Assembly (NCBI GenBank): GCA_001662655.1
Contig: KV460211.1
DNA from: Pseudogymnoascus verrucosus
Lineage: Eukaryota
Length of the DNA: 64,000 bases
Strand: one strand, 5' to 3'
This document shows positions 6,119-38,030 of the stretch, piece after piece. The first letter of the stretch is position 1. Every line of letters begins with the position of its first letter. The notes below the pieces were generated by a model. It searched no databases. It saw only the letters and a list, made by a program, of their open reading frames with translations, and was not told the origin of the DNA. A program made the translations under genes and the position numbers.

Positions 6119-9100
6119 TTAATACGCCCTCCTCCGCTTCTTAGCCTTCCCCTTCCTCGGCGTCGTCTTCTCAACCTTCTTCCCCGCCCCCATCTCCTCA
6201 CCCATACCTTCCTCCAAATCCCTCATCTCCTCATCATCAATCTCGCTCAACTCCTCATCGCTCGTCGCGCGCGCCACATCCTCCTCCACCACCTCCTTCT
6301 CCACCGTCTCCTTCTCCACCACCTCCTTCTCCACCACTTCTTCCTCTACTACCTCCTCCTCCACCACTTCCTCCTCCACCACTTCCTCCTCCACCTCCTC
6401 TTCCATAGGCGGCGGCGGCGGCGGCTCCACAAACGTCCCCGTCTTCGGGTCGTAGTTCTCGAGATACCACGGTTTCCCGCCGCCGGTGAGGAAGGAGCCA
6501 GGAGGGGCCACACTCGCTACGCCGGAAGTGGGTGCGAGGTCTTGGCTTATTATGCTCCCTGCGCCGGGGTTGGAGACTGGGGGTGTGGGGGGTTGTGGGA
6601 GGTTGTTTGACGTGGCCGAGAACTCGGCGGCAGCTGGGGGTGTTTCGGAGGATTGCGCGGCGGCGGGCTCCTCGGTAGTAGGCTTCGCGGCTGCGGCAGG
6701 TGTGATGGATGCGTAGGCTTCACCGTCGTCTGGCTCGCCTGGCGCGTCTTCGTCTTCGTCGAGCATGTCTACATCTGCGGATTCGGCTAGTGCGATGCTA
6801 TCAGCTGCTTCGGCTTCGACTGTGATCTGCTGGTTCACATCGACGTTGTCATCCGCTATATCAGCGCCTTCAATTGACTGAACTGCAACCGTTGGATCAG
6901 CAGTGCCATGTCTTGTAGGACCCAGCAAAGCCTCTGGAGAGATGTCAATGCATCCCTCTAGAACGAGTTCAAGATCCGCGACCATCTTATCCGGCGACTT
7001 TTGGAGCAGGTCTGCCTCTGCGCGGACGGCGATTTCGAGTTGTGGCTGGATGGCCTTGATGATTCGCTTGGCGAGCTTCTTCCTGTCCTTGACTTCGTGG
7101 ATTGCTATCTTCAGCTGGGAATTGTATTCGGCGCTACCCACAGCGGCCTCGCTGGGAAGGTGGGCCGCAACGGCTTCGATGCCTTTCTTGCAGATCATTG
7201 CGATGTCCTCGGCAAGCGTCGTGGCTTGGACGTAATATCGACGATGGAGCCTATTTTGTACTTGCCAGAGGCCAGCAGTAAACGTTCTCTTAATATCGAG
7301 GCTGTATCTCATGTTAGTAATGCAAACAGCGGAAAGGGATGCTAAGATTCAACTTACGCAAGCGCTTTATCGACAATCGGCGGCAGCAGCTTCGTAACGG
7401 GGAAGTACGTGGTATCCAACGTCTCCCTCTGTTTAATAGCATACTGCACCTTCTCCGTCTCCCTCATGACCACATGTGTGCTCAACTCCTTCAACCTCTC
7501 CACATCCTTCACCAGCATCTTCGCAAACTCAATACGCCTCTCCAGCCTCGCGCGTCCCACATCGCCCATACTCGCAAAATTGCGCCTCGTAAGCTCCATC
7601 GACGAAAACGTCTCCATCTGCAACTGCAACCTCTTCAGCAGCGCTGCCCCGCGCCTCGCCTCGCGCTTCAGCGTCCAGTACCGACACGCCGCCGCGACCC
7701 ACTCGCGACGCCGCAGGATCGTGAAGCGCTGGAGTGAGACGTCGACGATGTCGTACACTGCGGACGGAATGACTGGTGCACCCGAAGGGAGTTTCCACAC
7801 CGACTTTGGGTTCTGGAGCTCCCCCTTCTTCTTGGCGCTGCCGATGGTAATGGCCAGGTGCGCGCCGGTCTTCTGGGACTCGTCGGCGGGATGCTCGGTG
7901 GTTGCGTTTTGGTGAGTAGCTGCGAGAGCGAGGGCGGAGGCTTGGCTATCAGCCCAGAGACGGTCGCGCATGGTGCGTTTGTAGAAGCTGCGCGCTTCGC
8001 GTGTGGCTTTCGCGACATCGTTTTCTTTAGCGTAGTCGGTGGGGCAGTGCTTGTCGCAGAAGGCTTTGAGTTGGGTAGTGCCGTCGAGCTCGGCGAGGGT
8101 GCCGTGGTTGTTCTTCATTTTGAGGAAGAGATGGGCTCGGCGGGCGCAGGTGACGTGGAAGGCTTGGTAACAGAGTTTGTTACCGCATTGGATGCAGGCG
8201 CCCATTCGTTGCTGGCAGATATAGCATGTGAGTTTCCAACGTGTTTTGGGAACCTTTTCCACATCCATTACTGGTTCCATGAATGTATGATTGCCGAGTG
8301 AGACTTCTGGAATCCACATGGCACAGAGTAAGTGAGCCCAGCGCGACGAGTTGGTCTGCTTGAAACCACCCTCGGTGTTCGGGCAGAAGATGCAAGTCTA
8401 GATATATGTCAGCATATGCATAGCAATCAATCAACAGTGAAATAACATACCGGGACACCTCTCCCAATAAGCTGGCACTTTCTGCACAGCCACTGACCCT
8501 CCGGAATAAAGGGAACACCGTAACACTCCTGATGAACGGCCAAATCGCAGCCATCACAAAAGACAATCGCATTCGTATTCTCGCAATCCCCATCGTCGCA
8601 AATGGCACACTTGCTATCCAGCTCCTCACCTGCCTGTGGCTCTCCATTCACAGCAGCAGCTGAGCTGGATCGCGGCCTGTGAGTCTGCGGCGGCTTCGGG
8701 TTTGGCTTGGGAATCCGCTTTTCGAGCGCATGCCACTCCTTCTCGATCTTTGTAATAGTGATCTCAAACATCTCGCGGGAGATGGGCTCAATCCCAGCAG
8801 CTTTGCGTTGTGTGAGATTGAATGCCTCAAGCCACTTGTCGTCCTGCTCGTCCATATCATATTCCACCCTCCCCACAGAGCCACCCGTAATCGCCACCTC
8901 GCCGCCCTTGACAGGCAAATCCAAGTCTTCATCGAGGTAGGCATCATTATGTTTGATCATAATATGCTCTGAGCGAATAAATATATCCGTCTCCTGATAC
9001 CCCACATTCGCCATACTCTTCTCAACGTACTTCACCTGCCCTGACGCCTTGTCCTCAAACTTCGCCAGCGCATCGACCTTCCTATAGGATGGCTGCGGCA

Positions 9101-10786: not shown

Positions 10787-11413
10787 CTACAGTCCATATA
10801 CTTCCAAGTCTTCATTCATCCCCGGAAAAGCCCACACTTCACTCTCAGCTCCACCAAAGCACCTCAGGTTCCTAACCCCACGGTCTTCAAATCCCAGCTT
10901 CTCAACCACGCGCCTCGACCTTGCATTCCCCTTCGCAAAGAAGCCAAACACAGCATCAACACCCAAGTCTTGCCGGGCATATTCAATCAGCGCCCCCGTG
11001 GCCTCCGTCGCATACCCCTTCCCATTCAGCTCAGGAATAATCGCGAATCCAACATCCGGCGCCTTATACGCATCATCGCCCAGCCCTCGCGTCAGCGACA
11101 CCGTGCCAATCGGCGTGCACCCCTTCAGCACCTCGGAAAACGAGGCGTTGCTGGATGTAGCGGGTGAGTCGGGCTGCAGGTTCACGAGGTATGTGCCATA
11201 TCCGTACTTGCTGTGCTCAGCTTGGAAACGGGTTTCTATGTATTTTCGTGCCCCCGCAGTGGTGGTGATGGAGGTCGGAGTGCCGCCGATAGAGGCGATG
11301 AACTCGGGTGTGTTGTAGAGATTCACGATGAAGTCGCAGTGGGCGTCGTTGGTTGCGATGAGGTGGGAGAGATATAGGCGTGGGGTTGTGATGTGGAAGT
11401 TTGGGTCTGTCAT
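10787..11413 (-). CDS. GNAT acetyltransferase (RimJ/RimL, Acetyltransf_3 family)
   Basis: ITTPRLYL N-terminus, PDVGFAI..ELNGKGYATEA acetyl-CoA loop, and N.RSRRVVEKLGF motif. Intronless, 208 aa. Confidence 0.88.
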   Translation of the reverse strand: MTDPNFHITTPRLYLSHLIATNDAHCDFIVNLYNTPEFIASIGGTPTSITTTAGARKYIETRFQAEHSKYGYGTYLVNLQPDSPATSSNASFSEVLKGCTPIGTVSLTRGLGDDAYKAPDVGFAIIPELNGKGYATEATGALIEYARQDLGVDAVFGFFAKGNARSRRVVEKLGFEDRGVRNLRCFGGAESEVWAFPGMNEDLEVYGL

Positions 11414-11890: not shown

Positions 11891-12921
11891 TCAATGCCCA
11901 TGCTCACCCCCAATCCCCTCATCCCCAATGTCACTCCCGTGTGCAAGCACATGCGTAACAACTCCACCAGTATACCCCGACCCCCTCACTTTATACAAGC
12001 GACGTTCATACGCCCAGCTGAAAATGTGATCAAAATCGCGGCATTGGTGAACAGCTCCCATACCGTTAATACCGACTTTTGTCAGGGGCTCGAGTGTCAC
12101 ATCGCCCGCGCACATTATTGCCTGACGGATATAGTCTAAGCAGTGATCGCGGTGGAGGACGAATTCGTCGGGGGTCATTGTTGTGACGCCCCCAGGATAG
12201 TAGGCAAGTCGAAGAAAGTTCTGGAGATCATCAGCAAACTGTGTAGCTGGAGATGTAGAGAGTGAAGGCTACCAGGCAATGGAGTTGGTGGAACATAGAG
12301 ACTCCGTATACTTTTGCTGTGTCAGGGTTGTTGGGCGCAGGGAGTGAGGCAGGCAGGCTGCCGGTGTACTCTGTTGGAACTTCGATGATCCCTTTGCCGG
12401 CTGGTGTTGGCAAAAATTAGCATTGGTGTTGAACTTGCATCTCGTACGTTCAAAATGGAAGGACTCATCTACTTACGTGGGGATATTCTCTCCCACATCT
12501 CATCCGTAGCATTGGAAGGTGGTCCGCCATAAAACTTGTGAAGCTGGAATGTAACTCGATTCGAATAGAGCACTGATGCGTTAGTCCATGAAGATAGAAA
12601 CTGTGAATATCTTATATACTCACAGTCTGGCACAAAATGATCAGTTCCAGGCGTAGTATAACACCGAAAGCCTCCCAGCAAAATTATTACATTGGCCCAG
12701 ACTGAAAGACCAGCAATAAGAAACAGCAAGGTAATTATTAGAGACCAGTTTTGCCATTGTGTAAAACATCGTCGAGCGGAGCGGCGAGATCCTTTAAACT
12801 GGCCGCGACTATCAGCGTTAAAAGGTAGCCCTTCATCTCCCGCCATTAGAGATGTGCTTGAATCAGCGTGGTCTGAAGGATATCCAGAGACATGTTTATC
12901 ACTGGCGATAAATTTAGACAT
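11891..12921 (-). CDS. DUF3328 / UstYa-like oxidase (fungal RiPP tailoring enzyme), intact, 4 exons
   Basis: Exons 12921-12624, 12572-12477, 12400-12273 and 12220-11891 splice in frame through GT-AG introns. The protein has a single N-terminal TM helix, GPPS..TD..W, VSMFHQLHCL and HRDHCLDYIRQAIMCAGDVTLEP (two HxxHC motifs), and HQCRDF. Confidence 0.93.
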
Positions 12922-13502
12922 TGTTGTATGTTGATGGAGTGAGAATTAGAACTTGAAGATTTGACGAAGTTGAATAATTACACACGCCAACACACCACTG
13001 AAATCGGCTGTAACATTAAGTCTATGTGCAACGAGCCATATTTGGAGATCTACCCCGCTCTAAAAAGGAGAGTCAGCTTACAAGTTCACATTGGCTGTTC
13101 ACATTGACTTGTGTTCTACGTTCTTCATGTATAGTATCTGCACGATCTTCTCGATGAATGTTCATAAACGGCCCAAGGAAGCGACTAGTTCTGGGTGATG
13201 CCATAGATTTTATAACTAAGCTCATTTACCCCTCGTTTTCACATGTGCGATTAAATCGTTCTTCGATGTCCTGGGGAAAATATTATACCTTGACTTTCGA
13301 CTATATCTCATTTCATCATGATGTTGGTGCAGAAATGTAGCAACACTACCCCTTTCCTCAATGCCTTCAGCAGCCCCTAGCTCAACACTAGTATTTTTCT
13401 ATTTCCTTTTATTTCGTCTACATATTTCCGATAGCAATCCGAGGTGATAAGAACTTTGACCAATTTCCCTTCACTATTAACAAACGGCGAGGAAATATCA
13501 GA

Positions 13503-14038
13503 CTTTGGTCTACGGATCCTGAAACCGAGGATTTCGATACTGAGGCTTTCTGAGGCTCCTCTGAGTCTGCTGTCCTCCCTTACGACACAGTCATCTCCCG
13601 CATCGAGGCCCGACCCGCCGACCTCCAACGCTACCAGCCCGTCAGTCACCTTGAAGATATTTAAGTAACCAAATACGACATTAGCAACCACTTTCGGTCC
13701 TACTTTGACTGGTTTTCGGGTATGGCAAACCGGCGAATCTCGACGATCTTCGCCTGCCTTGAATGTGCTGACTGTGTCGGAGGTGCTACGCAGTTTCTTG
13801 AGCCTGTTGGTAGGTTCTCTGCCAAATGGTGTAAGTTCATCGACTGCAAAGATGACCCTGGACCTGGGGACGTTGCATTCCACGCCCTGGTGGAAAATGC
13901 GGTGTTCTGATCAGCTGGTCAAACTTGTTTCGAAATCGCACCAGACGCCCTTCAGGAATGTCGGTCAAGAAGGGAAGGAAGATTGCCTTGAATTTTTTTA
14001 CTGGGCACAACGTTGCATATCCCATTGAGGAAAAGTGA
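13503..14038 (+). pseudogene. Prolyl 4-hydroxylase-like 2OG-Fe(II) dioxygenase pseudogene
   Basis: Manual translation: F*GSSESAVLPYDTVISRIEARPADLQRYQPVSHLEDI*VTKYDISNHFRSYFDWF...NRRISTIFACLECADCVGGATQF...KWCKFIDC...VAFHALVENAVF*. After a frameshift near 13955 it continues GMSVKKGRKIALNFFT. Stops at 13551, 13662 and 13908. The HxD motif reads YxD. 5' exons not resolved. Confidence 0.75.
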
Positions 14039-14866
14039 CCGAAAGTAACCGAAGAATATATTTTGAATGCAGGATCATAAAATACAACCTCCTGAGAGCT
14101 GAAATATCTTGTCATGCAATTTCTGTTCTGTATGATGGCGGCTCAGAGCTAATAGGAAGGGTTTCACTACTGGGCAGGCGAGCTAGGTAATTATCGACCA
14201 CCTATTTCATGGGTTGCTCCGAGGTAAAACTGATGCAGAAAATGTCAAAGAATAAGACACATGCAAACCTTATGCCGAGTAAATAGACTGCAATGGTGCC
14301 TCATCTTTAAAATATAGCCTGATTAAGGATCCCGAGAAAGATGTAGCCATACATCCAACTTATAGCTCTTGATACATCTTATCCTTAATGGGAGTGGAGT
14401 GACGCCGTTGGAAGACGAGATAGGAAAGTATGTCAGATCGTGTAAGTCACAGTGTAGCTTGGGAAATGCCCGAGACAACAAATAGTGATCACGATGAAAA
14501 CTATAACCGCCTAGAACTCAGGTTCTTTTGCTCCGTTTATTAGCTACCTATCATAGCGATAGCCTCATTCCAAATCCATAACAACTGTGATGATGACTGC
14601 AGAATCACAAAATAGGAAGCTCAATACCTCGTAGCACAACCAAGGGTAATACGACCGACGATGCACCTCACATACCCGACTCTATTCGTATTACACGATC
14701 CGACGTTAAAGCCAAGCTCCTCTTTCTGTTTTTCAGAAAACGCTTTCTTCTCACGTCCAAACATTAGTTCTCAAAGTCTACGGTATGCTACTTTTCCTGA
14801 CGCTATTCTAATCACGCAAGATCGATTATTCAATAAACTAACATCACTAGATCTACACTATTCACC

Positions 14867-15205
14867 ATGAAATTCTCATCTTATTTCACTGCTGGAGTTC
14901 TTTTGTTCCCAGCTCTCATTTCTGCTGCACCCACCATTGATGGCGGAATACAGAATCGTGAGAAAGCAGCCGCGCCTGCGACGCCCGCCGTCTGGTCGGC
15001 GTCTGGCAAGAAGCGCAGTCCTGTTGAGGAGGCGGCGCCTGCCCCCTCAGCAGTCTGGTCGGCAGAGAAGCGAAATGTTGTTGAGGAGGCAGCTGAACCC
15101 CCGACGGCCTACGTCTGGACTGCCCCTAACAAAGAGAAGCGGAACGCTGCTGAAGAAGCAGACGTACCCGTCCCGGCGGCTGGTTGGACTGGCTCTAACA
15201 AGTAG
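14867..15205 (+). CDS. Secreted Kex2-processed repeat protein (KEP), putative dikaritin-type RiPP precursor
   Basis: Signal peptide MKFSSYFTAGVLLFPALISA, then four units: EKAAAPATPAVWSASGKKR / SPVEEAAPAPSAVWSAEKR / NVVEEAAEPPTAYVWTAPNKEKR / NAAEEADVPVPAAGWTGSNK. Lies about 2 kb from the DUF3328 gene. Confidence 0.85.
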   Translation: MKFSSYFTAGVLLFPALISAAPTIDGGIQNREKAAAPATPAVWSASGKKRSPVEEAAPAPSAVWSAEKRNVVEEAAEPPTAYVWTAPNKEKRNAAEEADVPVPAAGWTGSNK

Positions 15206-15579
15206 AAGCGTGACGACTAATGATGTCCCTGTCTACGTTGGGGCCTCAATGGGAGAGTAGAAATGCAAGAGTTAAGTTGTGAGCAGTTATATAGCTACCA
15301 TTCAAGCTTTTAGCAAAACATGAATAGTTTCACTGGCACTACCATTTATCCACCCATTTATAAAGTTCTCACACATAATATTCAAGCTGGCGCTTCTATT
15401 GCTGCCCTTTTTTGACATTGTAGCTCAATCATTATGCTGCGCAGTATTTCCAAATGTTTGATTCGCCTCTGTCCAATCTGGTTGAAATTCAAACTTGCTT
15501 CTATCGTAACTTAAATAGTGCGGCTAAAACGCACAAGTCAGACATACCAGAGGCAGGCTGAATGCCACATCGTACTTTT

Positions 15580-27975: not shown

Positions 27976-30037
27976 GTTGTAGCACAAGATTACGAGAAAT
28001 CGAGCAGTGCGGCTGCAGAAATACTCCAGATTCGGGAGTATCGTGGAATGCGGATTGTAGAGCTTCTAGAACGCCATTTTTGACTTACATGATAGATAGA
28101 TCACCCTGAGCGATTCAATGGGTCGCTGGGTGGGTTGGGTGGGCGGGATATGCATGTCGCTCGTTTGATGACGCTCATATTCGTAATCATCGTCTCTGTC
28201 TGGTCTTAGACATACTTGATGTAGGTTCCCACCCTGAAGAAAATACCGTCATAGAGATCCATGGTAAACCCCATGTTGTCTCTGGGAATCTCTCATGGGG
28301 GTTGCAGAAGAGGTCGCAGAGGGGGTCGCAGAATGGCGGTGTCAGCTGCTTTGCTTGCTTGCTTGCCTTCCCGCATTTCTCAAGATCAGATGTGGGAAAT
28401 GATGTCTTGTATGACAAAAAGGCCCGTAGATGTGAGTGTGAGAGGGCTGCTGTGAGGGAGTGTCCGGGTGACCAGTTCCTAGCCACGCAGTTACACATGG
28501 ACACGTGACAACTTGGATGAGAGATGCTTTAACCGATGATGAAGTCAAATCTATAAGCTTGTTAATTGTATGAATGAAGCATTGCATTTTCCCCAGTCCT
28601 CTACTTTCCCTCATACATATTTTTGGGTGCGACAAAAATAGATATCACGTGGTGAAACGCATGGATATACACGCTGTATCAAGAACGAAGCTCTCAGCTC
28701 AGTCCTTTCGCCGCCGCGGTCTCACATCAGTGGATTTTCAAGGGCTTAACAGCAAGTCCTTTCTAATCAGACGAACACCTCTGAACAAACGAACGTGTGT
28801 CTGACGAAGGCAACAAGTTTGGCGCCAACACGGCGCCAACTATGCACAACTACGTAGGCGCTTTGAAACGCGTGATGTTTCGTGAAACGGTGTTTCGGTG
28901 CGTGCGGAGCGAGTCGGCGCCTGATCGCGCGAATCGATGAAACGTAGTCTACTCGCGCATAGTTCCTCGAGTAGAGTAGGGTAAGGAAGTCGAGTAAGTA
29001 AAGTAAAGTGTAAGTACGGTAAACGAGCCGTTCACTCGTCAGCATCAGCATCAGCGTCATCGTCACCGACCACACCCTTGCCATGCAATGCAGAACATGC
29101 AATGCACTACGCAACCCACCCCAGAAAAAGAAGAAACGACACGTTCTTCCCAGAAACAAAGTTTTGGGGACACACACAAATAAACTCAATCAACTCCACT
29201 GCGGATTCTCGGCACACGCACGCTGTTCTATTCTGCTGTGACTGACTGACTGACCTGCCCTCTGGGTAGCGTGTGGGCGGACAAGACATCGTTGGGGTCG
29301 CCGCCGTCGTCGTGGTCAACACATGTGAAAAGGGCCGATGACCTTCACGCTGTGCAGCCCATCTGATCGTGAACTCCCCTCACCTGCGCCTTTTGCCCAC
29401 CCTCACCTGTCCTCTGCTCTGCACACGCTCGCGCGGCACCCTTGGCGGCCCGCTATTCCCCGCGTTCGGGCGGTGTTCCCGCGATGCAGGTGAAGGCAGG
29501 TAGGGTTCTTCGATGGGAATTTGCAAGTTGGTAATGGAGTCCGCGAGTCCGCGAGTCTCTTGCTCGGCTCGGACTCACCTCGGACGCGGAGGAGGAGAGG
29601 GAAAGCAATCTGGTGATGTTATGCATATTTTCTGGCAGATATTAAGATATGCGCGCCGGCGACGGCGACGGCGATATTGTGGAGTGAGGGTTCTGGGGAT
29701 TTTGGGTAGTTTGGCGGCGGTGGGGAGTGTAGATGGGTTATTAGCTTGTTAAAGCGGACCGAATGAGTTGCTGGTATGCATTCCTTCTCGGTGGCATTTG
29801 TGAACAAGAACAAGGTTTCAAGGTTGCGGGAGAAGGATGAGGGGGATGGACGGGGGTAGAGGGGTGGGAAGTATGACAGGAGGGATGTTCAATGCGGGGA
29901 GGGGTGATGATGGTGGGTAGTGTGTGGGAGTGGGATGGATGGATGGATGTGGGAGGGGGGGGGGGGAAGGAGGGAGTTGGATAGGATGGGGAGGGATGTG
30001 GGATAGGATGGGGACGCGATGGATGCGATAAACGATG

Positions 30038-30063
30038 AGAGTAGAGTAGAGTAGAGTAGAGTA
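30038..30063. repeat. (AGAGT)n microsatellite
   Basis: agagtagagtagagtagagtagagta read directly. Confidence 0.8.
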
Positions 30064-31828
30064 AAGTTGCATGTATGCACGGTTCATCGGCAGTGAGACG
30101 TGGTACTGTAGAGTAGCACTCGCCTAAACCAATCAGATCGCCAATAAACGGTTCTGTGCCTGACCTAGGATCCATTACGTTAATCCACTAACAGTCCACT
30201 AACAGTCCACTACAATCCACTAAACTCCACTACAAAGAGGAAAGCGCGTCGGCTCGCTCATTCTCCACCAACCACTCCCACTGGCACTTGACACATTGAC
30301 ACTCACTCACACCACTCACATTAATACCATCACCACCACACTAATGCTAGTCAGGTCTCACTGGTATCCGTTGTAAATCTACCAGTAGCACCCTAATGAC
30401 CCGAGCCACGCGCCTTTCTTTTTGTGTGTGTACACTCCAGTAGACTCAGCACTACAGCAAAGTACACTCCCCTACAGTTTCACCTCATCGCCCTTTGTTG
30501 TGGTTGTTGGTAGTGGTCGTCTTGTTGGCCCCCGACAATAAGGTTACGGGTGATGGCAGGGCGGTTGTGCTGTTGTTGTGATGCTGCTGTGCTGCTGTGC
30601 CGCTGTGCTGCGTAAATACGCGCGTGTGTTCATGGCTGAGTGGCTCTGGCTGGGCTATACCGGTATTCCGCTTCTAATACCGCTCCTATCACCCTAACAA
30701 AAGAAAGTTCGGCGCCGAAGAAATGTATACTGATGCACTGCACTGCCGCTGGAAAAAAAGGTCCCTTGACACTAACAGAAAGTACCTCCACCTCCACAAA
30801 GTCTCTTTTCAAGCCTCCTCCGATCCCCCCCCGTCCCCCCCAGTCCCCACCCCCCGGCTCTTCATCACTGGGGTTCCCAGGTTGGTCCAGGTTGGTCCAG
30901 GTAGCTCCTATTTCTGAAGCATGAGAGCGCCTCCTTAATCTCGACCGCCTTGACCGGGGAACAGAGAAGCCAACCCCCAATCGAACCAACTCCTCCGATG
31001 GGATTTGTTTCTGTTTCGTTTGTTTCCGACTTTCCATCCACAACTGTCCGCCACTACTCACCACTACTCCTCACCCCGTGCTGTACTTCCAAGCCGCCAC
31101 TACCTCATCTACCTCATCCCGTGCGACAGGGTGGAACTTCAGGGTGGCCTGCATGGCTCAAAATGTCTTGAACAATGCGTCCGGTGCCAAGTGCTCTTAT
31201 CCTCCGAAGCTACGGATCGCCGCCGAAGTGTGCTGCTGATGGCCCTCGTCCTGCCATTCGCGCCTTCCTAGATCACGGTAGCGTCTACTCCCATGCCACT
31301 CTATGCCAGCCCTTGCTCCCTTTGCTCCTCCACCGCACTCTATTCAAGTCCGAACCCAAGACATCCACAGCACCTGGTCTGGCCCAGAGTGGTCAAGTGT
31401 CGGCCATTCATAGATCTGTGGCGGTTCGGCGTCAATACGCGTGAATGGGTGGGTCCACCTCCCCCCCCCCATGGTCTCAATATGGTGTGAATGGGTGTGA
31501 ATGCCTGACAATGGGCTACCTGGCGCGGAAAGGTGGGTAGGTTGTGAGCAGGCACCTCACCTTCATCCCTCCTTCTCTATATAAGTACCTGAGTATATCC
31601 GCTTCTTTTTTCACAATGTAAGCAAGCGCTGGTCTCTCGCCCATTGTTCACTTCCTTAGACCCTCAGGTCTGCTGCTGCCCTTCCTAGAAGAGTCTACTG
31701 TAAGATCCTTTTGTTTGCGCCCCTATCGGAATTTGTTATATATCCAGCATCATACTTACAATTCTCTCAGAAAACATACGCTTTACCCCACATTGCTACT
31801 TACATATTTACTTCCCCCAACGCCCATA

Positions 31829-34498
31829 ATGGCGTTAACCATGCATCGCCTGCTGGCGGTCATGAGCTTGCTATTGCTCATGGTCACAGCATTCCCAGCT
31901 ACCTCCGCCGCTCCTTCCAAACGAGCTACCTCATACTGGCAGTCAGATATCAAGCGCCAAGGCACTGTCGCATACGGCGATTCCTCTTTCAAGATCTTCC
32001 GCAATGTCAAGGACTTCGGCGCCAAGGGAGATGGAACCACCGATGACACCGCTGCTATCAACGCTGCTATCTCTACTGGCAACCGCTGCGGCCAGGGCTG
32101 TGACTCCTCGACTGTCACCCCAGCTCTCATCTACTTCCCCCCTGGAACCTACATGGTCAGCAAGCCATTGAACCAGTACTACTACACCCAAATGATTGGT
32201 GATCTTTCTGCACCACCAACCTTGAAGGCCACCGCTGGCTTCGTCGGCATGGCCGTCATTGACGCAGACCCATATGCTGATGGAGGCATCAACTGGTTCA
32301 CCAACCAGAACAACTTCTTCCGTCAGATCCGCAACTTCGTCATCGACCTGACCGCGATGCCCGTCAACGTCGGTGCTGGTATCCACTGGCAGGTCGCCCA
32401 GGCCACCAGTCTCCAGAACATCGTTTTCAACATGAGAACCGATGGCGGCGCTGCCCTTGCCCAGGTCGGAATCTTCATGGACAACGGCTCCGGTGGTTTC
32501 ATGACCGACCTCACCTTCAACGGTGGAAAGTACGGTGCTTTCCTCGGATCCCAGCAGTTCACCAGCCGCAACCTCAAGTTCAACAACTGCCAGACCGCCA
32601 TCTTCATGAACTGGAACTGGGCATGGACCTTCCACGGACTCGATATCAACAACTGCCAGATCGGTCTTGACATGGCCAACGGCGGTGCTTCTTCCCAGAC
32701 CGTTGGCTCCGTCGTGGTCATGGACTCCAAGATCAGCAACACCCCTGTCGGAATTACAACCGTCTACCACACTTCTGAGGGCGCCACCAACGGCACCCTG
32801 ATCATTGAGAACGTCGATATGACTACCAACGTCCCAGTTGCCGTTAAGAACGCTGGCACCCAGGCCACCCTCCTTGCCGGAAACGCAAAGATCGATTCCT
32901 GGGTCCAGGGCCGCGAGTACAAGGCCGTCAACGCCGGAAAGGATGTCCAGGGTTCCACCCACTCCACCTCCAAGCCCGCTGGCCTTGTCGGTGCTGATGG
33001 CAGAGTCTTCGTCAAGTCCAAGCCTCAATACGCCGATGTCCCAACCTCTTCGTTCATCTCCGTCAAGGACAGGGGAGCCAAGGGTGATGGTGTCACTGAT
33101 GATACTGCTGCTATCCAGGCTATTTTCAACTCCGCTACCGCAGGCCAGGTCGTCTACTTCGACCACGGTGCCTATGTCATCACCAAGACTGTCAACGTAC
33201 CAAACAACATCCGCATCACTGGTGAAATCTGGCCCCTCATCATGGCTGGTGGCGACTCGTTCTTCAAGGACCAAGCCAACCCCAAGCCAGTTTTCAAGGT
33301 TGGAAACGCCGGTGAATCCGGCGCCGTCGAGATCTCCGACCTCATCTTCCAGACCCTCGGCCCCCAGCCCGGCGCGATCCTGATGGAGTGGAACCTCGGC
33401 CAGACCTCCCAAGGCTCCTCCGGTCTGTGGGACGTGCACTTCCGCATCGGCGGCTCCGCCGGGACCAAGCTCCAGTCCAACACCTGCTCCAAGACCCCCC
33501 AGCAGACCACCCCCGCCAAGCCCGAGTGCGTCGCCGCATTCCTCCTCCTCCACGTCACCGCCAAGGGCGCCGTGTACGTCGAGAACTGCTGGTTCTGGGT
33601 CGCGGATCACGAGCTCGACCTCGCGGACCATAACCAGATCAACCTCTACAACGGCCGCGGCGTGCTCATCGAGTCCAACCCCGGCCCAGTCTGGCTGTGG
33701 GGCACAAGCAGCGAGCACAACGTCCTATACAACTACCAGGTCAACGCCGCCGCCAACGTCTTCATGGGTCTGATCCAGACCGAGACACCCTACTACCAAT
33801 CCAACCCCGACGCCTCCGTCCCGTTCACCGTCAACCCAGCCTTCAGCGACCCAGACCTCACCCAGGGCTCCTCCAGGACCAAGAAGGCATGGGGTGTTCG
33901 CGTCCGCAACTCAAACAACGTCTACATCTACGGCGCGGGCCTGTACTCCTTCTTCGACAACTACGACCAGGTCTGCCTCGACACCGCCAGCTGCCAGGAT
34001 AACATGGTCTCCATCGAGTCCTCGAGCAATATCCAGATGCTCGCTCTCAGCACTAAGGCTGCTACCAACATGGTCACCGTCAATGGCCAGTCCGCTGCGC
34101 TCGACAAGGATAATCGCAATAACTTCTGCGCCGCGATCGCCGTCTTCGCTCTGGCCGTAAGCTCTCCTCTACCTACTACCACGACGCGATCAACGTCTCC
34201 CCCGTCCTCCTCCTCAAGCACTACTCCTCCAAGTCCGCTGTCTTCGCACACGACGACTACTCCTACCTTCCCTCTCACCACCCTCACTACTTCTACAGTC
34301 CCCGGTCATCCGCTAACCACTACCACTACAGTAATCACTGCTGTAGACACTACGCGCTCAGTTTCTACCGCTTCCACCAACACTGCTACGGCAACGTTGC
34401 CGTCTGTCCCTGGTGTCGTTCCGGGGTTTACACCTGGTGTTGTGCCTGGCTTCACTCCTGGTGTTGTCCCGGGGTTCACGCCGGGTGTTAGTCCTTGA
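31829..34498 (+). CDS. Secreted GH55 exo-beta-1,3-glucanase with Ser/Thr-rich and (PGVVPGFT)n tail
   Basis: Signal peptide plus KR; two beta-helix repeats (FRNVKDFGAKGDGTTDDTAAI and SVKDRGAKGDGVTDDTAAI); TNQNNFFRQIRN; WFWVADHELD; IQTETPYYQ. Confidence 0.95.
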   Translation: MALTMHRLLAVMSLLLLMVTAFPATSAAPSKRATSYWQSDIKRQGTVAYGDSSFKIFRNVKDFGAKGDGTTDDTAAINAAISTGNRCGQGCDSSTVTPALIYFPPGTYMVSKPLNQYYYTQMIGDLSAPPTLKATAGFVGMAVIDADPYADGGINWFTNQNNFFRQIRNFVIDLTAMPVNVGAGIHWQVAQATSLQNIVFNMRTDGGAALAQVGIFMDNGSGGFMTDLTFNGGKYGAFLGSQQFTSRNLKFNNCQTAIFMNWNWAWTFHGLDINNCQIGLDMANGGASSQTVGSVVVMDSKISNTPVGITTVYHTSEGATNGTLIIENVDMTTNVPVAVKNAGTQATLLAGNAKIDSWVQGREYKAVNAGKDVQGSTHSTSKPAGLVGADGRVFVKSKPQYADVPTSSFISVKDRGAKGDGVTDDTAAIQAIFNSATAGQVVYFDHGAYVITKTVNVPNNIRITGEIWPLIMAGGDSFFKDQANPKPVFKVGNAGESGAVEISDLIFQTLGPQPGAILMEWNLGQTSQGSSGLWDVHFRIGGSAGTKLQSNTCSKTPQQTTPAKPECVAAFLLLHVTAKGAVYVENCWFWVADHELDLADHNQINLYNGRGVLIESNPGPVWLWGTSSEHNVLYNYQVNAAANVFMGLIQTETPYYQSNPDASVPFTVNPAFSDPDLTQGSSRTKKAWGVRVRNSNNVYIYGAGLYSFFDNYDQVCLDTASCQDNMVSIESSSNIQMLALSTKAATNMVTVNGQSAALDKDNRNNFCAAIAVFALAVSSPLPTTTTRSTSPPSSSSSTTPPSPLSSHTTTTPTFPLTTLTTSTVPGHPLTTTTTVITAVDTTRSVSTASTNTATATLPSVPGVVPGFTPGVVPGFTPGVVPGFTPGVSP

Positions 34499-35050
34499 TT
34501 TGCATATGCCGCGTGTGCGTGTGTGTTGGACCTTGTTTTTGATGCGGTTTGCTGCTGAGTGTGAAGGCGATGATTTAGTTGGTACCCGACTGACGATATG
34601 ACCTTTTTTCTTTCTGTTAACTTACACTTCTTTGTACCTTCTTTTTTTTGCACATAGCTTTAGATTGTGGTTGTGGTTGGATGTTGTTGAGGTGGAGGGG
34701 ACCGTGCGGGATCATGGGATTGATTGATTGATAGGGGTGGGGATGGAGGTGCGGGGAAGGCACTTTTTTGGATGCGATGGAGTGGGAGTGGAAGTGGGAG
34801 CGATGGCAGTGGGGGAATCTGGCTGTAGATTCGGAAAAGTATATATGTGACCTAGCAGCGGATGCGAGGTCGGCAAATGGCAATATGTGTTGACTTACCA
34901 ATTTTTTGACGATGATTGTTAAAGGGGAAGTGTGGTGAATGTGTGAGGTTGTGGATGTGATCTATAAGCCGTGGCCTACGCATTTGTTCTAGGACTATGA
35001 GTCCAATCAGTCTAGCTACACCTTTCATATTATCAATTCACGCCCCCCAC

Positions 35051-36418: not shown

Positions 36419-37273
36419 CTAATACACAGTCTTAGGAACACCCGGGGTGGTCCAGCAGACTCTATCCATGATACCCGCCTCCTCAAAGACCTTAACCAGA
36501 TCCTCGCCATGCTCAGTAAAATGTCCCCATTCCTCAAAATGCATAGGGACCATGACATCCGCGCCAATGTCCCGAACCAACTGCACTGCCTGCTTACCAT
36601 CCATGGTGATCTGAATCGGGCCAATGGGGAATTCAACCATAGCATTACCCAGGTTGAGAATGGCGGCCATAACGTGCACGCGATCCTTGATCTTCTTCAA
36701 TTCATCGATGTACACTGTATCTCCAGAGAAGTAGATGGCGTTCGGCTTGCCGCTTGCCTCGTGTATACCGAAAGAATCCGTCTCGAGTATGAATCCGGTG
36801 ACCTCTCCAAATGGGAAGTGTTTGCAAGGAGTGCCGGTGATGCGGAATTCTTTGCCACCAATGATAGAGGTCACCGTCTCCCAGGGCTTTAGGCCTACAA
36901 CAGCTGGTCGCGGCTGGAGGTTCTTTGCCCCGTCCATGGTCGTGAATACACGGCGTCCATCGAGGAGCCTTCGGCCTTCGGGATCGAGGTTGTCATAGTG
37001 GTCTTCGTGACTGAGAAGGACAGCGTCGATCGGAGGCAGATCATGGAGCTTCATGGCTGGGGCCTTGGAAATCGAGAGCTGGACGGGTGGAGGAGCCTCG
37101 TCTAGTCCAAAGTCTTCCTTCAGTCGTACTTTGGACCAATCAATCTCTTGTTCGAAAGTACCGGCATCTCCAAAGTAGGGATCGGTGAGGAAGTTGATGC
37201 CGTCGATTTTCAAGATAGCCGTGGCCGTTGTGACGTGGGTGAAGATGAGACTGGTTTTCGGTGACGAAGGCAT
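36419..37273 (-). CDS. Metallo-beta-lactamase-fold Zn-dependent hydrolase
   Basis: HVTTAT...FLTDP, SHEDHYDNLD (HxxHxD-type metal motif), PCKH, YFSGDT, PMHFEEWGHF. Confidence 0.9.
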   Translation of the reverse strand: MPSSPKTSLIFTHVTTATAILKIDGINFLTDPYFGDAGTFEQEIDWSKVRLKEDFGLDEAPPPVQLSISKAPAMKLHDLPPIDAVLLSHEDHYDNLDPEGRRLLDGRRVFTTMDGAKNLQPRPAVVGLKPWETVTSIIGGKEFRITGTPCKHFPFGEVTGFILETDSFGIHEASGKPNAIYFSGDTVYIDELKKIKDRVHVMAAILNLGNAMVEFPIGPIQITMDGKQAVQLVRDIGADVMVPMHFEEWGHFTEHGEDLVKVFEEAGIMDRVCWTTPGVPKTVY

Positions 37274-38030
37274 GATTGCAAACGAGGGAAGAAGAAGTGA
37301 AGACTAGATGGACTTATTTTGACGCACAAACACCACCGGGGCCGTTCTCATATTTAAGGACGGACAGAACCCTTCCCTCCCGTTTGGATCTGCTTACACA
37401 AGACCTAGAGAGTGCTTCGTTAGTCACTGTAGCTTAGTTAGTCAAGATTATCTAAGAGCCTGGGTTATGAAGAATCTCTAAGAATCCATAACTACAGCTA
37501 CTCGGATCTTTAAGATTCTGTGGTCGACAATACGTCGTACACTACTCGGGAAGCTCAAGTTCAACGTAGAATACAGAACCAAAGGCCGTCAGCAGACCCG
37601 CTGTAGTCTATCATTATAAAGCCAAAAAAGCCTATGATTAAAAACCATAGGAACAAGATACGCAGTACGTTCGACCCTGAAAAGCAACTGCTTCCTAACA
37701 TTCTCGAGGGTTTTGGCGGATTAAGATACCCGATTGAGTTAACGCCACCATAATCGAGAGATTTCGTCTTAGAATTAGCGGGGTAAGTTCATCGACAGTC
37801 TTGGCGGGTAATGCAACCACAAAAGGTTTAGTCTTAGAATTGGCGTTTCCCCACCAGTAACTACTTTGTAATTCATTCATACCTCCCACTTGGAGGCGAT
37901 TCCCTATATATACGTTCGACCATCTTCCTGTTGAGGGAGCATTCTTGATTTTACAACAAGCCTACCAACTGTTCTTCAATTTATACACCAGCTTCTCTTT
38001 TCCACACGTACTACAGAGACAACCACAACT

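What the first reader, a model, noticed from the sequence alone, without database searches (positions are those of the whole stretch)
13503..14038. Hidden prolyl-4-hydroxylase-like pseudogene inside the RiPP locus
The ORF track shows only a 62-aa fragment, but reading through three stops (TGA 13551, TAA 13662, TGA 13908) and a frameshift near 13955 recovers the fungal P4H-like motif order: IE.R; LEDI[Q]VTKY; [H]FDWF; NRRISTIF; GGATQF; WCKFIDC; NAVF[W]; [HA]GM.VKKGRK. Both metal-binding His residues appear lost (TAC at 13701, and the deletion). It is divergent from the DUF3328 gene and next to a Pro-rich precursor. Inference: the ancestral cluster hydroxylated core prolines and this lineage lost that step while keeping DUF3328.
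Basis: partly seen in the sequence, partly recalled or inferred. Interest (0 to 1): 0.75.

Follow-up and report, generated by a model that had tools for sequence, protein, structure and literature searches.

The report
Dead prolyl-hydroxylase gene in fungal peptide cluster
Between an intact peptide-cyclising enzyme gene and its repeat-peptide precursor gene in a Pseudogymnoascus fungus lies the wreck of a prolyl-4-hydroxylase-like gene, which is a real but ordinary case of gene decay and only hints that these peptides were once hydroxylated.

Summary
Window 13318-14038 (+) is a decayed prolyl-4-hydroxylase-like 2OG/Fe(II) oxygenase gene. Read through with X at the stops, it hits PF13640 proteins at E=1.4e-49.

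- five stops lie on the reading path;
- there are two frameshifts;
- about 64 codons are deleted;
- the first iron-binding His is now Tyr, and a 12-bp deletion removed the second;
- 15 of 52 family-invariant positions are changed.

The TGA at 13908 belongs to an 8-bp insertion at 13908-13915, and that insertion is the frameshift. There is no frameshift near 13955.

The neighbours are intact. The UstYa/DUF3328 gene has 300 codons and both HxxHC motifs. The Kex2-type precursor is also whole.

The locus comes from a Pseudogymnoascus species. Public gene models from two other strains leave the P4H frame at different points. Intact orthologues are scattered across four fungal classes.

The precursor family appears only in Pseudogymnoascus. 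The idea that the enzyme once hydroxylated the peptides therefore rests on gene position alone. I rate it plausible but unproven, at about 0.3. No RIP signature was found.

The parts
13318..14038 (+). Whole relic of the P4H-like 2OG/Fe(II) oxygenase gene (pseudogene), from the ancestral start codon to the ancestral stop at TGA 14036-14038
   Evidence: tblastn of P0013, P0005, P0002 and P0012 against the window. Read-through search at E=1.4e-49.
13318..13497 (+). N-terminal remnant (cytosolic tail and membrane-anchor region) with stops TAG 13378-13380 and TAG 13432-13434. A frameshift lies somewhere between about 13435 and 13494.
   Evidence: Aligns with P0013 residues 1-58 (30% identity, E=7e-6). 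Both TAG codons stand opposite Trp in P0013. Sequence read.
13494..13556 (+). Lineage-specific linker segment (13494-13544), followed by the junction of a deletion of about 64 codons that contains TGA 13551-13553
   Evidence: 10 of 17 residues are identical to P0013 residues 60-76. P0013 residues ~77-143 have no counterpart in the window. MAFFT placed this short fragment differently. I prefer the collinear tblastn placement.
13557..13664 (+). Fragment A of the catalytic domain, ending at TAA 13662-13664 where homologues have Gln
   Evidence: 27 of 35 residues identical to P0002. Alignment.
13665..13907 (+). Fragment B, the core of the double-stranded beta-helix domain. TAC 13701-13703 (Tyr) replaces the first iron-binding His, and the Asp of HxD is kept.
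   Evidence: 57 of 80 residues identical to P0002. 8 of 29 family-invariant columns are changed. The PDB alignment to Bacillus anthracis P4H puts Tyr opposite His.
13908..13915 (+). 8-bp insertion (placement ambiguous by 3 bp) that shifts the frame and creates the TGA at 13908
   Evidence: Homologues have Phe-Trp adjacent. In the window Phe ends at 13907 and Trp is at 13916-13918 in another frame.
13916..14038 (+). Fragment C, the C-terminal strands. An in-frame 4-codon deletion between 13951 and 13952 removed the second iron-binding His. The Lys ten residues further on is kept. The stop is TGA 14036-14038.
   Evidence: 24 of 40 residues identical to P0002. 6 of 14 invariant columns are changed or gapped.
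12922..13317 (.). 396-bp divergent intergenic region shared by the UstYa gene and the P4H relic. It contains a tandem 13-nt repeat at 13084-13109.
   Evidence: Start codons read. Repeat D6.
11891..12921 (-). Intact UstYa/DUF3328 gene. Exons are 12921-12477, 12400-12273 and 12220-11894, with the stop at 11893-11891. Introns are 76 and 52 nt. It has 300 codons and both HxxHC motifs.
   Evidence: Pfam PF11807 UstYa: exon 3 at 9.3e-17, exon 2 at 4.4e-4. Splice sites read by eye. The exon junction restores ..HQLHCL|NFLR..
14867..15205 (+). Kex2-processed repeat precursor (112 aa). It has an N-terminal hydrophobic signal-like segment and four Pro-rich repeats ending in KR or the C-terminus. Only one repeat keeps the A-Y-V-W motif.
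   Evidence: Most hydrophobic 19-residue window at residues 6-24. Orthologue GMDG_07757 of P. destructans 20631-21 is 67% identical.
10787..11413 (-). GNAT (Acetyltransf_3) gene next to the UstYa gene. It is a possible but unproven cluster member.
   Evidence: Pfam PF13302 at 2.7e-21.

Best explanation
The feature is a dead gene. It is the relic of a type-II-membrane prolyl-4-hydroxylase-like 2-oxoglutarate/Fe(II) dioxygenase in a Pseudogymnoascus genome. It lies between an intact UstYa (DUF3328) gene and the Kex2-processed repeat precursor gene of a minimal ustiloxin-type (dikaritin-like) RiPP locus.

It cannot make an enzyme. The reading path has five stops, two frameshifts and a deletion of about 64 codons. 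Neither iron-binding His remains.

The decay came from ordinary point mutations and small indels under relaxed selection, not from RIP. It began before this lineage split from at least one relative, because a Pro-to-Leu change at an invariant site is shared with P0004. It then proceeded independently in congeners.

Shown: homology, the lesions, the intactness of both neighbours, and the gene order.
Inferred: the ancestral protein hydroxylated peptidyl-proline in the secretory pathway.
Unresolved: whether its substrate was the neighbouring precursor. I put that at about 0.3.
For: Homology:
- 12 hits among 39 candidates, best E=1.4e-49.
- the closest intact protein, P0002, finds 41 proteins at E<=1e-10 among 74 candidates.
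- P0002 and P0005 pass the Pfam PF13640 cut-off (29.6 and 35.2 bits against 27).
- the intact homologue P0005 matches Chlamydomonas P4H-1 (2jig, 6.6e-15), Bacillus anthracis P4H (1.1e-10) and the human collagen P4H alpha-2 catalytic domain (3.6e-9).

Lesions. In one search, 15 of 52 columns that are invariant in 18 intact homologues are changed or gapped.

No RIP: the composite index is -0.44, against -0.51 for the whole window.

Neighbours and order:
- The UstYa gene is intact and the precursor is intact.
- P0012 (V492_01135) joins the P4H N-terminal part to the precursor in one model, so the gene order holds in another strain.

Independent decay:
- P0012 keeps the first His and the segment deleted in the window, but leaves the frame just after HFDW.
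- P0013 leaves the frame after LEDIQ.
- Both then follow the window's +1 frame (27 of 46 and 28 of 42 identical residues).
- P0004 is changed at 8 invariant columns and shares the Pro-to-Leu change with the window.

Membrane anchor: in 7 of 7 full-length orthologues the most hydrophobic 19-residue window lies within residues 12-57.
Against: Pfam finds no family in any of the 4 translations of the relic itself. The direct PDB match of the relic is marginal (E=1.1e-3). The assignment therefore rests on the homologue search.

The N-terminal remnant is weakly supported: 30% identity, with an E-value valid only for a 3.5-kb target. MAFFT placed the short linker fragment differently.

I cannot see the DNA of the other strains. 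Their frame changes are read from automatic gene models and could partly be annotation artefacts.

Only 64 kb of this genome is visible. An intact paralogue elsewhere cannot be excluded, although there is none in the window.

Raw reads were not available. However, more than seven separate lesions and 15 changed invariant sites are too many to be assembly error.
Confidence: 0.93

Rival explanations
1. The P4H-like enzyme was a tailoring enzyme of this RiPP locus. It would have hydroxylated prolines in or beside the A-Y-V-W repeats of the precursor in the Golgi/ER, alongside Kex2 and UstYa. The step was later lost while cyclisation was kept.
For: - The relic lies directly between the two core genes. 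It is divergent from UstYa across a 396-bp shared intergenic region.
- The flanks beyond the GNAT and GH3 genes are housekeeping or carbohydrate genes. The locus is therefore tiny and the relic sits at its centre.
- The order is conserved in VKM F-4246.
- The orthologues are patchy across classes yet 63-73% identical, as cluster genes often are.
- Orthologues have an N-terminal hydrophobic anchor (7 of 7). This suggests a luminal enzyme in the compartment where Kex2-type precursors are processed (established knowledge).
- Each repeat carries 2-3 prolines next to the conserved motif.
- From recall, with only the search listing of review PMC11253845 seen: plant Golgi P4Hs hydroxylate secreted peptide precursors.
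Against: - The precursor family was found only in Pseudogymnoascus. The P4H subfamily occurs in Dothideomycetes, Sordariomycetes, Eurotiomycetes and a lichen fungus. The enzyme family is therefore not tied to this precursor.
- VKM F-4246 keeps four near-perfect repeats beside a frame-broken P4H. P. destructans keeps three A-Y-V-W repeats, and no P4H protein from it was retrieved. The peptide is thus maintained without the enzyme.
- Proline positions are not conserved between repeats.
- No paper in the searchable library links UstYa or DUF3328 with a prolyl 4-hydroxylase or a 2OG enzyme. The DUF3328 + 'prolyl' hit I checked (1 of 9 papers) concerns prolyl oligopeptidase.
- Synteny within one genus is expected anyway.
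Confidence: 0.3
2. The P4H-like gene was an unrelated accessory gene of the secretory pathway that merely neighbours a young, genus-specific UstYa/precursor pair. Its decay has nothing to do with the RiPP.
For: - The precursor family is genus-restricted and the enzyme subfamily is widespread.
- The enzyme is broken or degenerate in 4 of the 4 relatives that I judge closest: the window, P0004, P0012 and P0013. The precursor persists in the three strains for which a precursor is seen: the window, P0012 and P. destructans P0016.
- There is no precedent in the literature searched.
Against: Its position exactly between the two core genes, with a shared divergent promoter, would be a coincidence. 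The patchy distribution resembles that of secondary-metabolism genes more than housekeeping genes.
Confidence: 0.6
3. The reading frame is really intact, and the breaks are assembly errors, introns or recoding. Alternatively, the real gene is the 177-codon antisense ORF at 13377-13910.
For: The antisense ORF is the longest open frame over the region. Some orthologues have an intron just after HFD (read-through ..HFDVS.. in P0043-P0045).
Against: - The lesions include multi-codon deletions, an 8-bp insertion without splice signals, and 15 changed invariant residues.
- Both catalytic His residues are gone whatever the frame.
- The antisense ORF has no Pfam match at E<=1 and mirrors the sense homology.
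Confidence: 0.03

Closest known systems
Algal/plant-type prolyl 4-hydroxylases (Chlamydomonas reinhardtii P4H-1, PDB 2jig/2jij/3gze)
   Same: This is the best solved relative of the intact orthologue P0005 (E=6.6e-15 over residues 88-283). It has the same HxD...H...K motif order, and the N-terminal anchor is followed by the catalytic domain. From recall, these enzymes hydroxylate proline in secreted Pro-rich proteins and peptides.
   Different: The window copy lacks both His residues and about 64 codons, and it is not translatable. The fungal subfamily carries an extra Cys-rich insert (..EC..C.. and WC..IDC). No substrate is known for it.
Bacillus anthracis P4H (3itq, 5hv0) and the human collagen P4H alpha-2 catalytic domain (7zsc)
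   Same: They share the 2OG/Fe(II) double-stranded beta-helix family. The relic itself still matches 3itq/5hv0 at E=1.1e-3. P0005 matches them at 1.1e-10 to 4.6e-10, and 7zsc at 3.6e-9.
   Different: They are much more distant. There is no peptide-substrate-binding domain or PDI subunit partner as in animal collagen P4H (recalled).
Ustiloxin-type RiPP loci (dikaritins: ustiloxin, phomopsin, asperipin-2a)
   Same: The locus has a signal-peptide precursor with KR-delimited repeats next to a UstYa/DUF3328 gene. The conserved repeat has an aromatic Tyr. Passages read in PMC7329392 and PMC9233826 describe these as the defining parts.
   Different: The locus is minimal. It has one UstYa gene, and no tyrosinase, methyltransferase or transporter was seen among the ORFs of at least 110 codons scanned up to 40.7 kb. 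The core motif is A-Y-V-W, not Y-x-I. In my searches no described dikaritin locus carries a P4H-like gene. No product is known.
Public gene models V492_01135 (Pseudogymnoascus sp. VKM F-4246) and V490_05223 (VKM F-3557)
   Same: They are orthologous loci. Their N-terminal P4H parts are 83% and 93% identical to P0002. The same gene order is implied by V492_01135.
   Different: They are annotated as hypothetical proteins. One is a chimera of the P4H fragment, an out-of-frame stretch and the precursor. Their breaks lie at other positions than those of the window.

Membership tests
Prolyl 4-hydroxylase-like 2OG/Fe(II) oxygenase (Pfam PF13640 2OG-FeII_Oxy_3) | Significant sequence match to the family domain | tested here: met
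   Met indirectly. Pfam gives 0 families for 4 of 4 translations of the relic. The relic nevertheless hits 12 proteins, 9 of them with PF13640, best E=1.4e-49. Intact homologues P0002 and P0005 pass the curated cut-off.
Prolyl 4-hydroxylase-like 2OG/Fe(II) oxygenase (Pfam PF13640 2OG-FeII_Oxy_3) | Iron-binding facial triad His-x-Asp...His | tested here: not met
   The first His is Tyr (TAC 13701-13703) and the Asp is kept. The second His is removed by a 4-codon deletion. The triad is present in 18 of 18 intact homologues aligned. The window copy is a relic of a member, not a working member.
Prolyl 4-hydroxylase-like 2OG/Fe(II) oxygenase (Pfam PF13640 2OG-FeII_Oxy_3) | Basic residue binding the 2-oxoglutarate C5 carboxylate, about 10 residues after the distal His | tested here: met
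   The Lys of ..KKGRK.. is kept in the window and is invariant in the family. Its role is recalled from Chlamydomonas and B. anthracis P4H structures and was not tested.
Prolyl 4-hydroxylase-like 2OG/Fe(II) oxygenase (Pfam PF13640 2OG-FeII_Oxy_3) | Uninterrupted reading frame | tested here: not met
   Five stops, two frameshifts and a deletion of about 64 codons.
Prolyl 4-hydroxylase-like 2OG/Fe(II) oxygenase (Pfam PF13640 2OG-FeII_Oxy_3) | Peptidyl-proline 4-hydroxylation activity of the (ancestral) protein | not testable with these tools
   No member of this fungal subfamily has a demonstrated substrate in anything I retrieved. Names such as 'prolyl 4-hydroxylase' are automatic annotations.
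Ustiloxin-type (dikaritin) RiPP locus | Precursor with a signal peptide and repeats delimited by Kex2 (KR) sites | tested here: met
   The 112-aa protein has a hydrophobic N-terminus (residues 6-24) and repeats ending KKR, EKR and EKR. No signal-peptide predictor was available.
Ustiloxin-type (dikaritin) RiPP locus | UstYa/DUF3328 gene in the vicinity of the precursor gene | tested here: met
   PF11807 at 9.3e-17. The gene is intact and lies 1.9 kb from the precursor gene.
Ustiloxin-type (dikaritin) RiPP locus | Aromatic (Tyr) residue in each core for the ether cross-link | tested here: inconclusive
   Tyr is present in 1 of 4 window repeats, 3 of 3 repeats of P. destructans P0016, 3 of 4 repeats of P0015, and 4 of 4 in P0012. 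Trp is present in all four window repeats.
Ustiloxin-type (dikaritin) RiPP locus | A P4H-like gene as a recognised component | tested here: not met
   0 papers for UstYa + 'prolyl 4-hydroxylase'. 0 papers for UstYa + 2OG + RiPP. 0 occurrences of 'dioxygenase' or 'hydroxyproline' in the review PMC9233826.

The most novel reading that the evidence does not exclude
A P4H-like luminal dioxygenase was once a dedicated tailoring enzyme of a UstYa-type fungal RiPP. It gave a hydroxyproline-bearing, Tyr/Trp-cross-linked peptide. Pseudogymnoascus lineages have shed this step repeatedly and independently while keeping the cyclase and precursor. That would be the first 2OG prolyl hydroxylase in a dikaritin-type pathway, and a natural series of pathway-simplification intermediates.
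Probability: 0.25. Interest if true: 0.6.

Novelty: new member of a known kind. Interest (0 to 1): 0.35.

Why it matters
Taken alone, this is an unannotated pseudogene of a well-known enzyme family, which is ordinary gene decay.

It has three modest uses:
1. It explains and corrects public gene models. V492_01135 is a chimera of the P4H relic and the RiPP precursor.
2. It marks a very small UstYa + precursor locus with an A-Y-V-W core that seems confined to Pseudogymnoascus, the genus that includes the bat white-nose fungus. No product is known for it.
3. If intact orthologues elsewhere prove to sit beside UstYa/KEP genes, prolyl hydroxylation would join the list of fungal RiPP modifications. 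The differently broken copies would then date its loss.

None of the evidence here demonstrates that third point.

Tried and rejected
- **Pfam on the relic.** Four translations at E<=10 gave nothing. The domain model is too weak for the damaged sequence.
- **RIP as the cause of decay.** Rejected. TpA/ApT is 0.71, (CpA+TpG)/(ApC+GpT) is 1.16, and the composite is -0.44, like the window mean of -0.51. The four clearest point lesions are all CpA/TpG transitions, but that is also what any transition-made stop looks like.
- **Second copy in the window.** There is none for P4H, precursor or UstYa.
- **Antisense ORF 13377-13910 and the open +1 frame 13669-14025 as real genes.** No Pfam family.
- **Shared promoter motifs or repeats explaining the deletion.** Nothing convincing among 7 direct and 9 inverted short repeats.
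- **Accession numbers and neighbours through the listing of cluster members.** The database was switched off. Positional accession numbers could not be compared.
- **Umemura 2020 supplements.** They hold no sequences and no 2OG-FeII_Oxy_3 entry. The 16 Pseudogymnoascus KEP rows I saw, of 164 term occurrences, could not be tied to this precursor.
- **ESM Atlas with P0005.** It only returned generic P4H/2OG clusters from plants and Ascomycota.
- **Profile search with the three precursors against 1.84 billion representatives.** Five hits. Two are real (the query's own cluster and P0012). P0046 and P0048 are unrelated repeat proteins. P0047 was not inspected.
- **Reading the 8-bp insertion as a transposon excision footprint.** It is partly palindromic. 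I considered this and left it as speculation.
- **Not used.** Structure prediction and complex prediction, because neither would change the verdict.

Full report
**What is there**

The frame starting at 13856 gives the C-terminal motifs.

Pfam finds nothing in any of four translations of the region, even at E<=10. The PDB sequence search gives only a marginal match to Bacillus anthracis prolyl 4-hydroxylase (3itq/5hv0, E=1.1e-3). In that alignment a Tyr stands opposite the His of the HxD motif.

The homologue search settles the question. It found 12 proteins at E<=1e-3 among 39 candidates. The best was 1.4e-49 at 62% identity, and 9 of the 12 carry PF13640, 2OG-FeII_Oxy_3. The intact homologues P0002 and P0005 pass the Pfam cut-off (29.6 and 35.2 bits against 27).

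P0005 matches solved prolyl 4-hydroxylases:
- Chlamydomonas P4H-1 (2jig, 6.6e-15)
- B. anthracis P4H (1.1e-10)
- human collagen P4H alpha-2 catalytic domain (3.6e-9)

The relic is therefore a P4H-like 2OG/Fe(II) oxygenase gene, far beyond chance.

**Lesion map**

I ran tblastn of P0013, P0005, P0002 and P0012 against 12001-15500. I also made a MAFFT alignment of 12 full-length and 7 partial homologues with the in-frame fragments added. Together they give this map.

- **N-terminal remnant.** The relic begins at ATG 13318. Bases 13318-13497 align with residues 1-58 of P0013 (30% identity, E=7e-6 in the 3.5-kb target). They contain TAG 13378 and TAG 13432, both opposite Trp.
- **First frameshift.** It lies somewhere between about 13435 and 13494.
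- **Linker.** Bases 13494-13544 match the lineage-specific linker of P0013 (10 of 17 residues).
- **Large deletion.** P0013 residues ~77-143 have no counterpart. TGA 13551 sits in that junction. MAFFT placed this short fragment elsewhere. I prefer the collinear tblastn placement.
- **Stop and first His.** TAA 13662 replaces an invariant Gln. TAC 13701 replaces the first iron-binding His.
- **Second frameshift.** Phe ends at 13907 and the next family residue, Trp, is TGG 13916-13918 in another frame. An 8-bp insertion (13908-13915, placement ambiguous by 3 bp) makes both this frameshift and the TGA at 13908.
- **Second His.** That deletion removed the second iron-binding His. The Lys ten residues further on is kept.
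- **Stop.** The ancestral stop is TGA 14036-14038.

For invariant columns I used 18 homologues that I judged intact. Short or truncated hits were left out, as were P0004, P0012 and P0013. Of 52 columns invariant in those 18 and covered by the fragments, the relic differs at 15. It is 108/155 identical to P0002.

**Cause of decay**

RIP indices over the relic are like those of the whole window (composite -0.44 against -0.51). RIP is therefore rejected. Ordinary mutation under relaxed selection is the simplest cause.

**Surroundings**

*UstYa gene.* On the minus strand, 396 bp from the relic's start codon, lies a UstYa/DUF3328 gene. Pfam PF11807 scores 9.3e-17 for the last exon and 4.4e-4 for the middle exon. 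I read its structure from the sequence:
- exons 12921-12477, 12400-12273 and 12220-11894;
- introns of 76 and 52 nt;
- 300 codons, with both HxxHC motifs;
- an exon junction that restores ..HQLHCL|NFLR...

It looks intact.

*Precursor gene.* Downstream, at 14867-15205, is a 112-residue precursor with a hydrophobic N-terminus and four Pro-rich repeats ending in KR.

*Wider flanks.* Beyond these lie a GNAT gene and a GH3 beta-glucosidase gene. Further out are housekeeping or carbohydrate-active genes: PX, EB1, EPL1/PHD and a rhamnogalacturonase-like gene. The RiPP locus is thus minimal, and the relic sits at its centre.

The window holds no second P4H, precursor or UstYa copy.

**Taxon and relatives**

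The precursor has only three relatives among 751 candidates:
- itself;
- an unnamed protein (75% identity);
- GMDG_07757 of Pseudogymnoascus destructans 20631-21 (67% identity).

A profile of these three was searched against 1.84 billion representatives. It found only the query's own cluster and P0012 as real hits. The precursor family therefore seems confined to Pseudogymnoascus. The window comes from a member of that genus other than strain 20631-21.

The conserved repeat motif is A-Y-V-W. The window keeps it in only one of four repeats.

P0012 (V492_01135 of Pseudogymnoascus sp. VKM F-4246) is a chimeric model. It has three parts:
- residues 1-83 are P4H, and keep the first His and the segment deleted in the window;
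- the model then follows the +1 frame (27 of 46 residues identical to the window's +1 frame);
- it then jumps to the precursor, which has four near-perfect A-Y-V-W-A-T-P repeats.

P0013 (V490_05223, VKM F-3557) keeps residues 1-180. It then also runs in the +1 frame.

P0004, from an unnamed source, is open but changed at 8 invariant columns, including the Lys. It shares one Pro-to-Leu change with the window.

So the gene order is conserved. The enzyme gene looks broken or degenerate in four relatives, and at different places. I could not see the DNA of the other strains, so part of this may be annotation artefact.

**Distribution of intact orthologues**

With P0002 as the query, 41 proteins at E<=1e-10 were found among 74 candidates. 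Named ones come from Neofusicoccum, Lasiodiplodia, Pseudopithomyces, Podospora, Apodospora, Rhypophila, Microdochium, Aspergillus clavatus, Penicillium cf. griseofulvum and Xylographa.

The named full-length hits are 51-73% identical, most of them 63-73% (Xylographa is 51%). The set is small and patchy. Seven of seven full-length orthologues examined have an N-terminal hydrophobic segment.

**Interpretation**

That this is a pseudogene is close to certain. What it once did is inference.

By homology, the ancestor was a luminal peptidyl-prolyl hydroxylase. Its position between UstYa and a Pro-rich precursor makes a tailoring role attractive.

Several points weigh against that role:
- The enzyme family is far wider than the precursor family.
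- The precursor is maintained beside broken enzyme genes.
- The prolines are not at fixed positions in the repeats.

The literature searched offers no precedent:
- 0 papers for UstYa + 'prolyl 4-hydroxylase'.
- 0 papers for UstYa + 2OG + RiPP.
- The DUF3328 + 'prolyl' paper I checked (1 of 9) concerns prolyl oligopeptidase.
- The fungal RiPP review PMC9233826 has no occurrence of 'dioxygenase' or 'hydroxyproline' (passages only).
- Of Umemura 2020 (PMC7329392) I read passages and searched the supplements. It lists Pseudogymnoascus KEPs but no 2OG domain.

I give the tailoring hypothesis about 0.3 and the unrelated-neighbour reading about 0.6.

**What stayed unchecked**

- Genomic neighbourhoods of any fungal orthologue.
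- The raw reads.
- The rest of this genome.
- The P. destructans locus itself.

**Verdict**

It is an ordinary pseudogene of a known family. The evolutionary story attached to it is possible but not demonstrated.

Noticed in passing
window 14867-15205: The window's precursor has lost the Tyr of the conserved A-Y-V-W motif in 3 of 4 repeats (they read A-V-W, A-V-W and A-G-W). By contrast, P. destructans P0016 keeps it in 3 of 3 repeats and the VKM F-4246 model keeps it in 4 of 4. The precursor itself may be drifting or diversifying in this lineage. One A-V-W-S-A variant is shared with the unnamed relative P0015.
   Followed up: partly
window 13476-15217, compared with P0012: The public gene model V492_01135 (Pseudogymnoascus sp. 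VKM F-4246) is a chimera. It joins a P4H fragment, an out-of-frame stretch and the RiPP precursor. V490_05223 (VKM F-3557) also runs out of frame. Both are annotated as hypothetical proteins.
   Followed up: yes
window 13908-13915: The 8-bp insertion that breaks the frame is partly palindromic (it overlaps CTGATCAG and CAGCTG). It resembles the following 8 bases at 5-6 of 8 positions. It could be an imperfect tandem duplication or a transposon excision footprint. This is pure speculation.
   Followed up: no
window 13084-13109: There is a tandem 13-nt direct repeat (12 of 13 identical) in the divergent intergenic region between the UstYa gene and the P4H relic. It may be a regulator binding site.
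   Followed up: no
window 10787-11413 (-): A GNAT (Acetyltransf_3, 2.7e-21) gene lies directly beside the UstYa gene. It might belong to the locus, for example by acetylating the peptide, or it might be unrelated.
   Followed up: no
P0043, P0044, P0045 (unnamed sources): Three orthologue models read ..HFDVS.. and then nonsense. This suggests a conserved intron just after the HFD codons in other fungi. The window and P0002 have no intron there.
   Followed up: no
window 34001-34500; also 2001-2500, 6251-6750, 30001-30500, 37251-37750: These 500-bp windows have a RIP-like composite index above 0.3 (up to 0.78 at 34001-34500, at the end of the rhamnogalacturonase-like ORF 31622-34495). The P4H relic shows none.
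   Followed up: no
window 13377-13910 (-) and 13669-14028 (+): Long open frames overlap the relic: 177 codons antisense and 119 codons in the +1 frame. Neither has a Pfam family. Automatic annotators of related genomes followed the +1 frame.
   Followed up: partly
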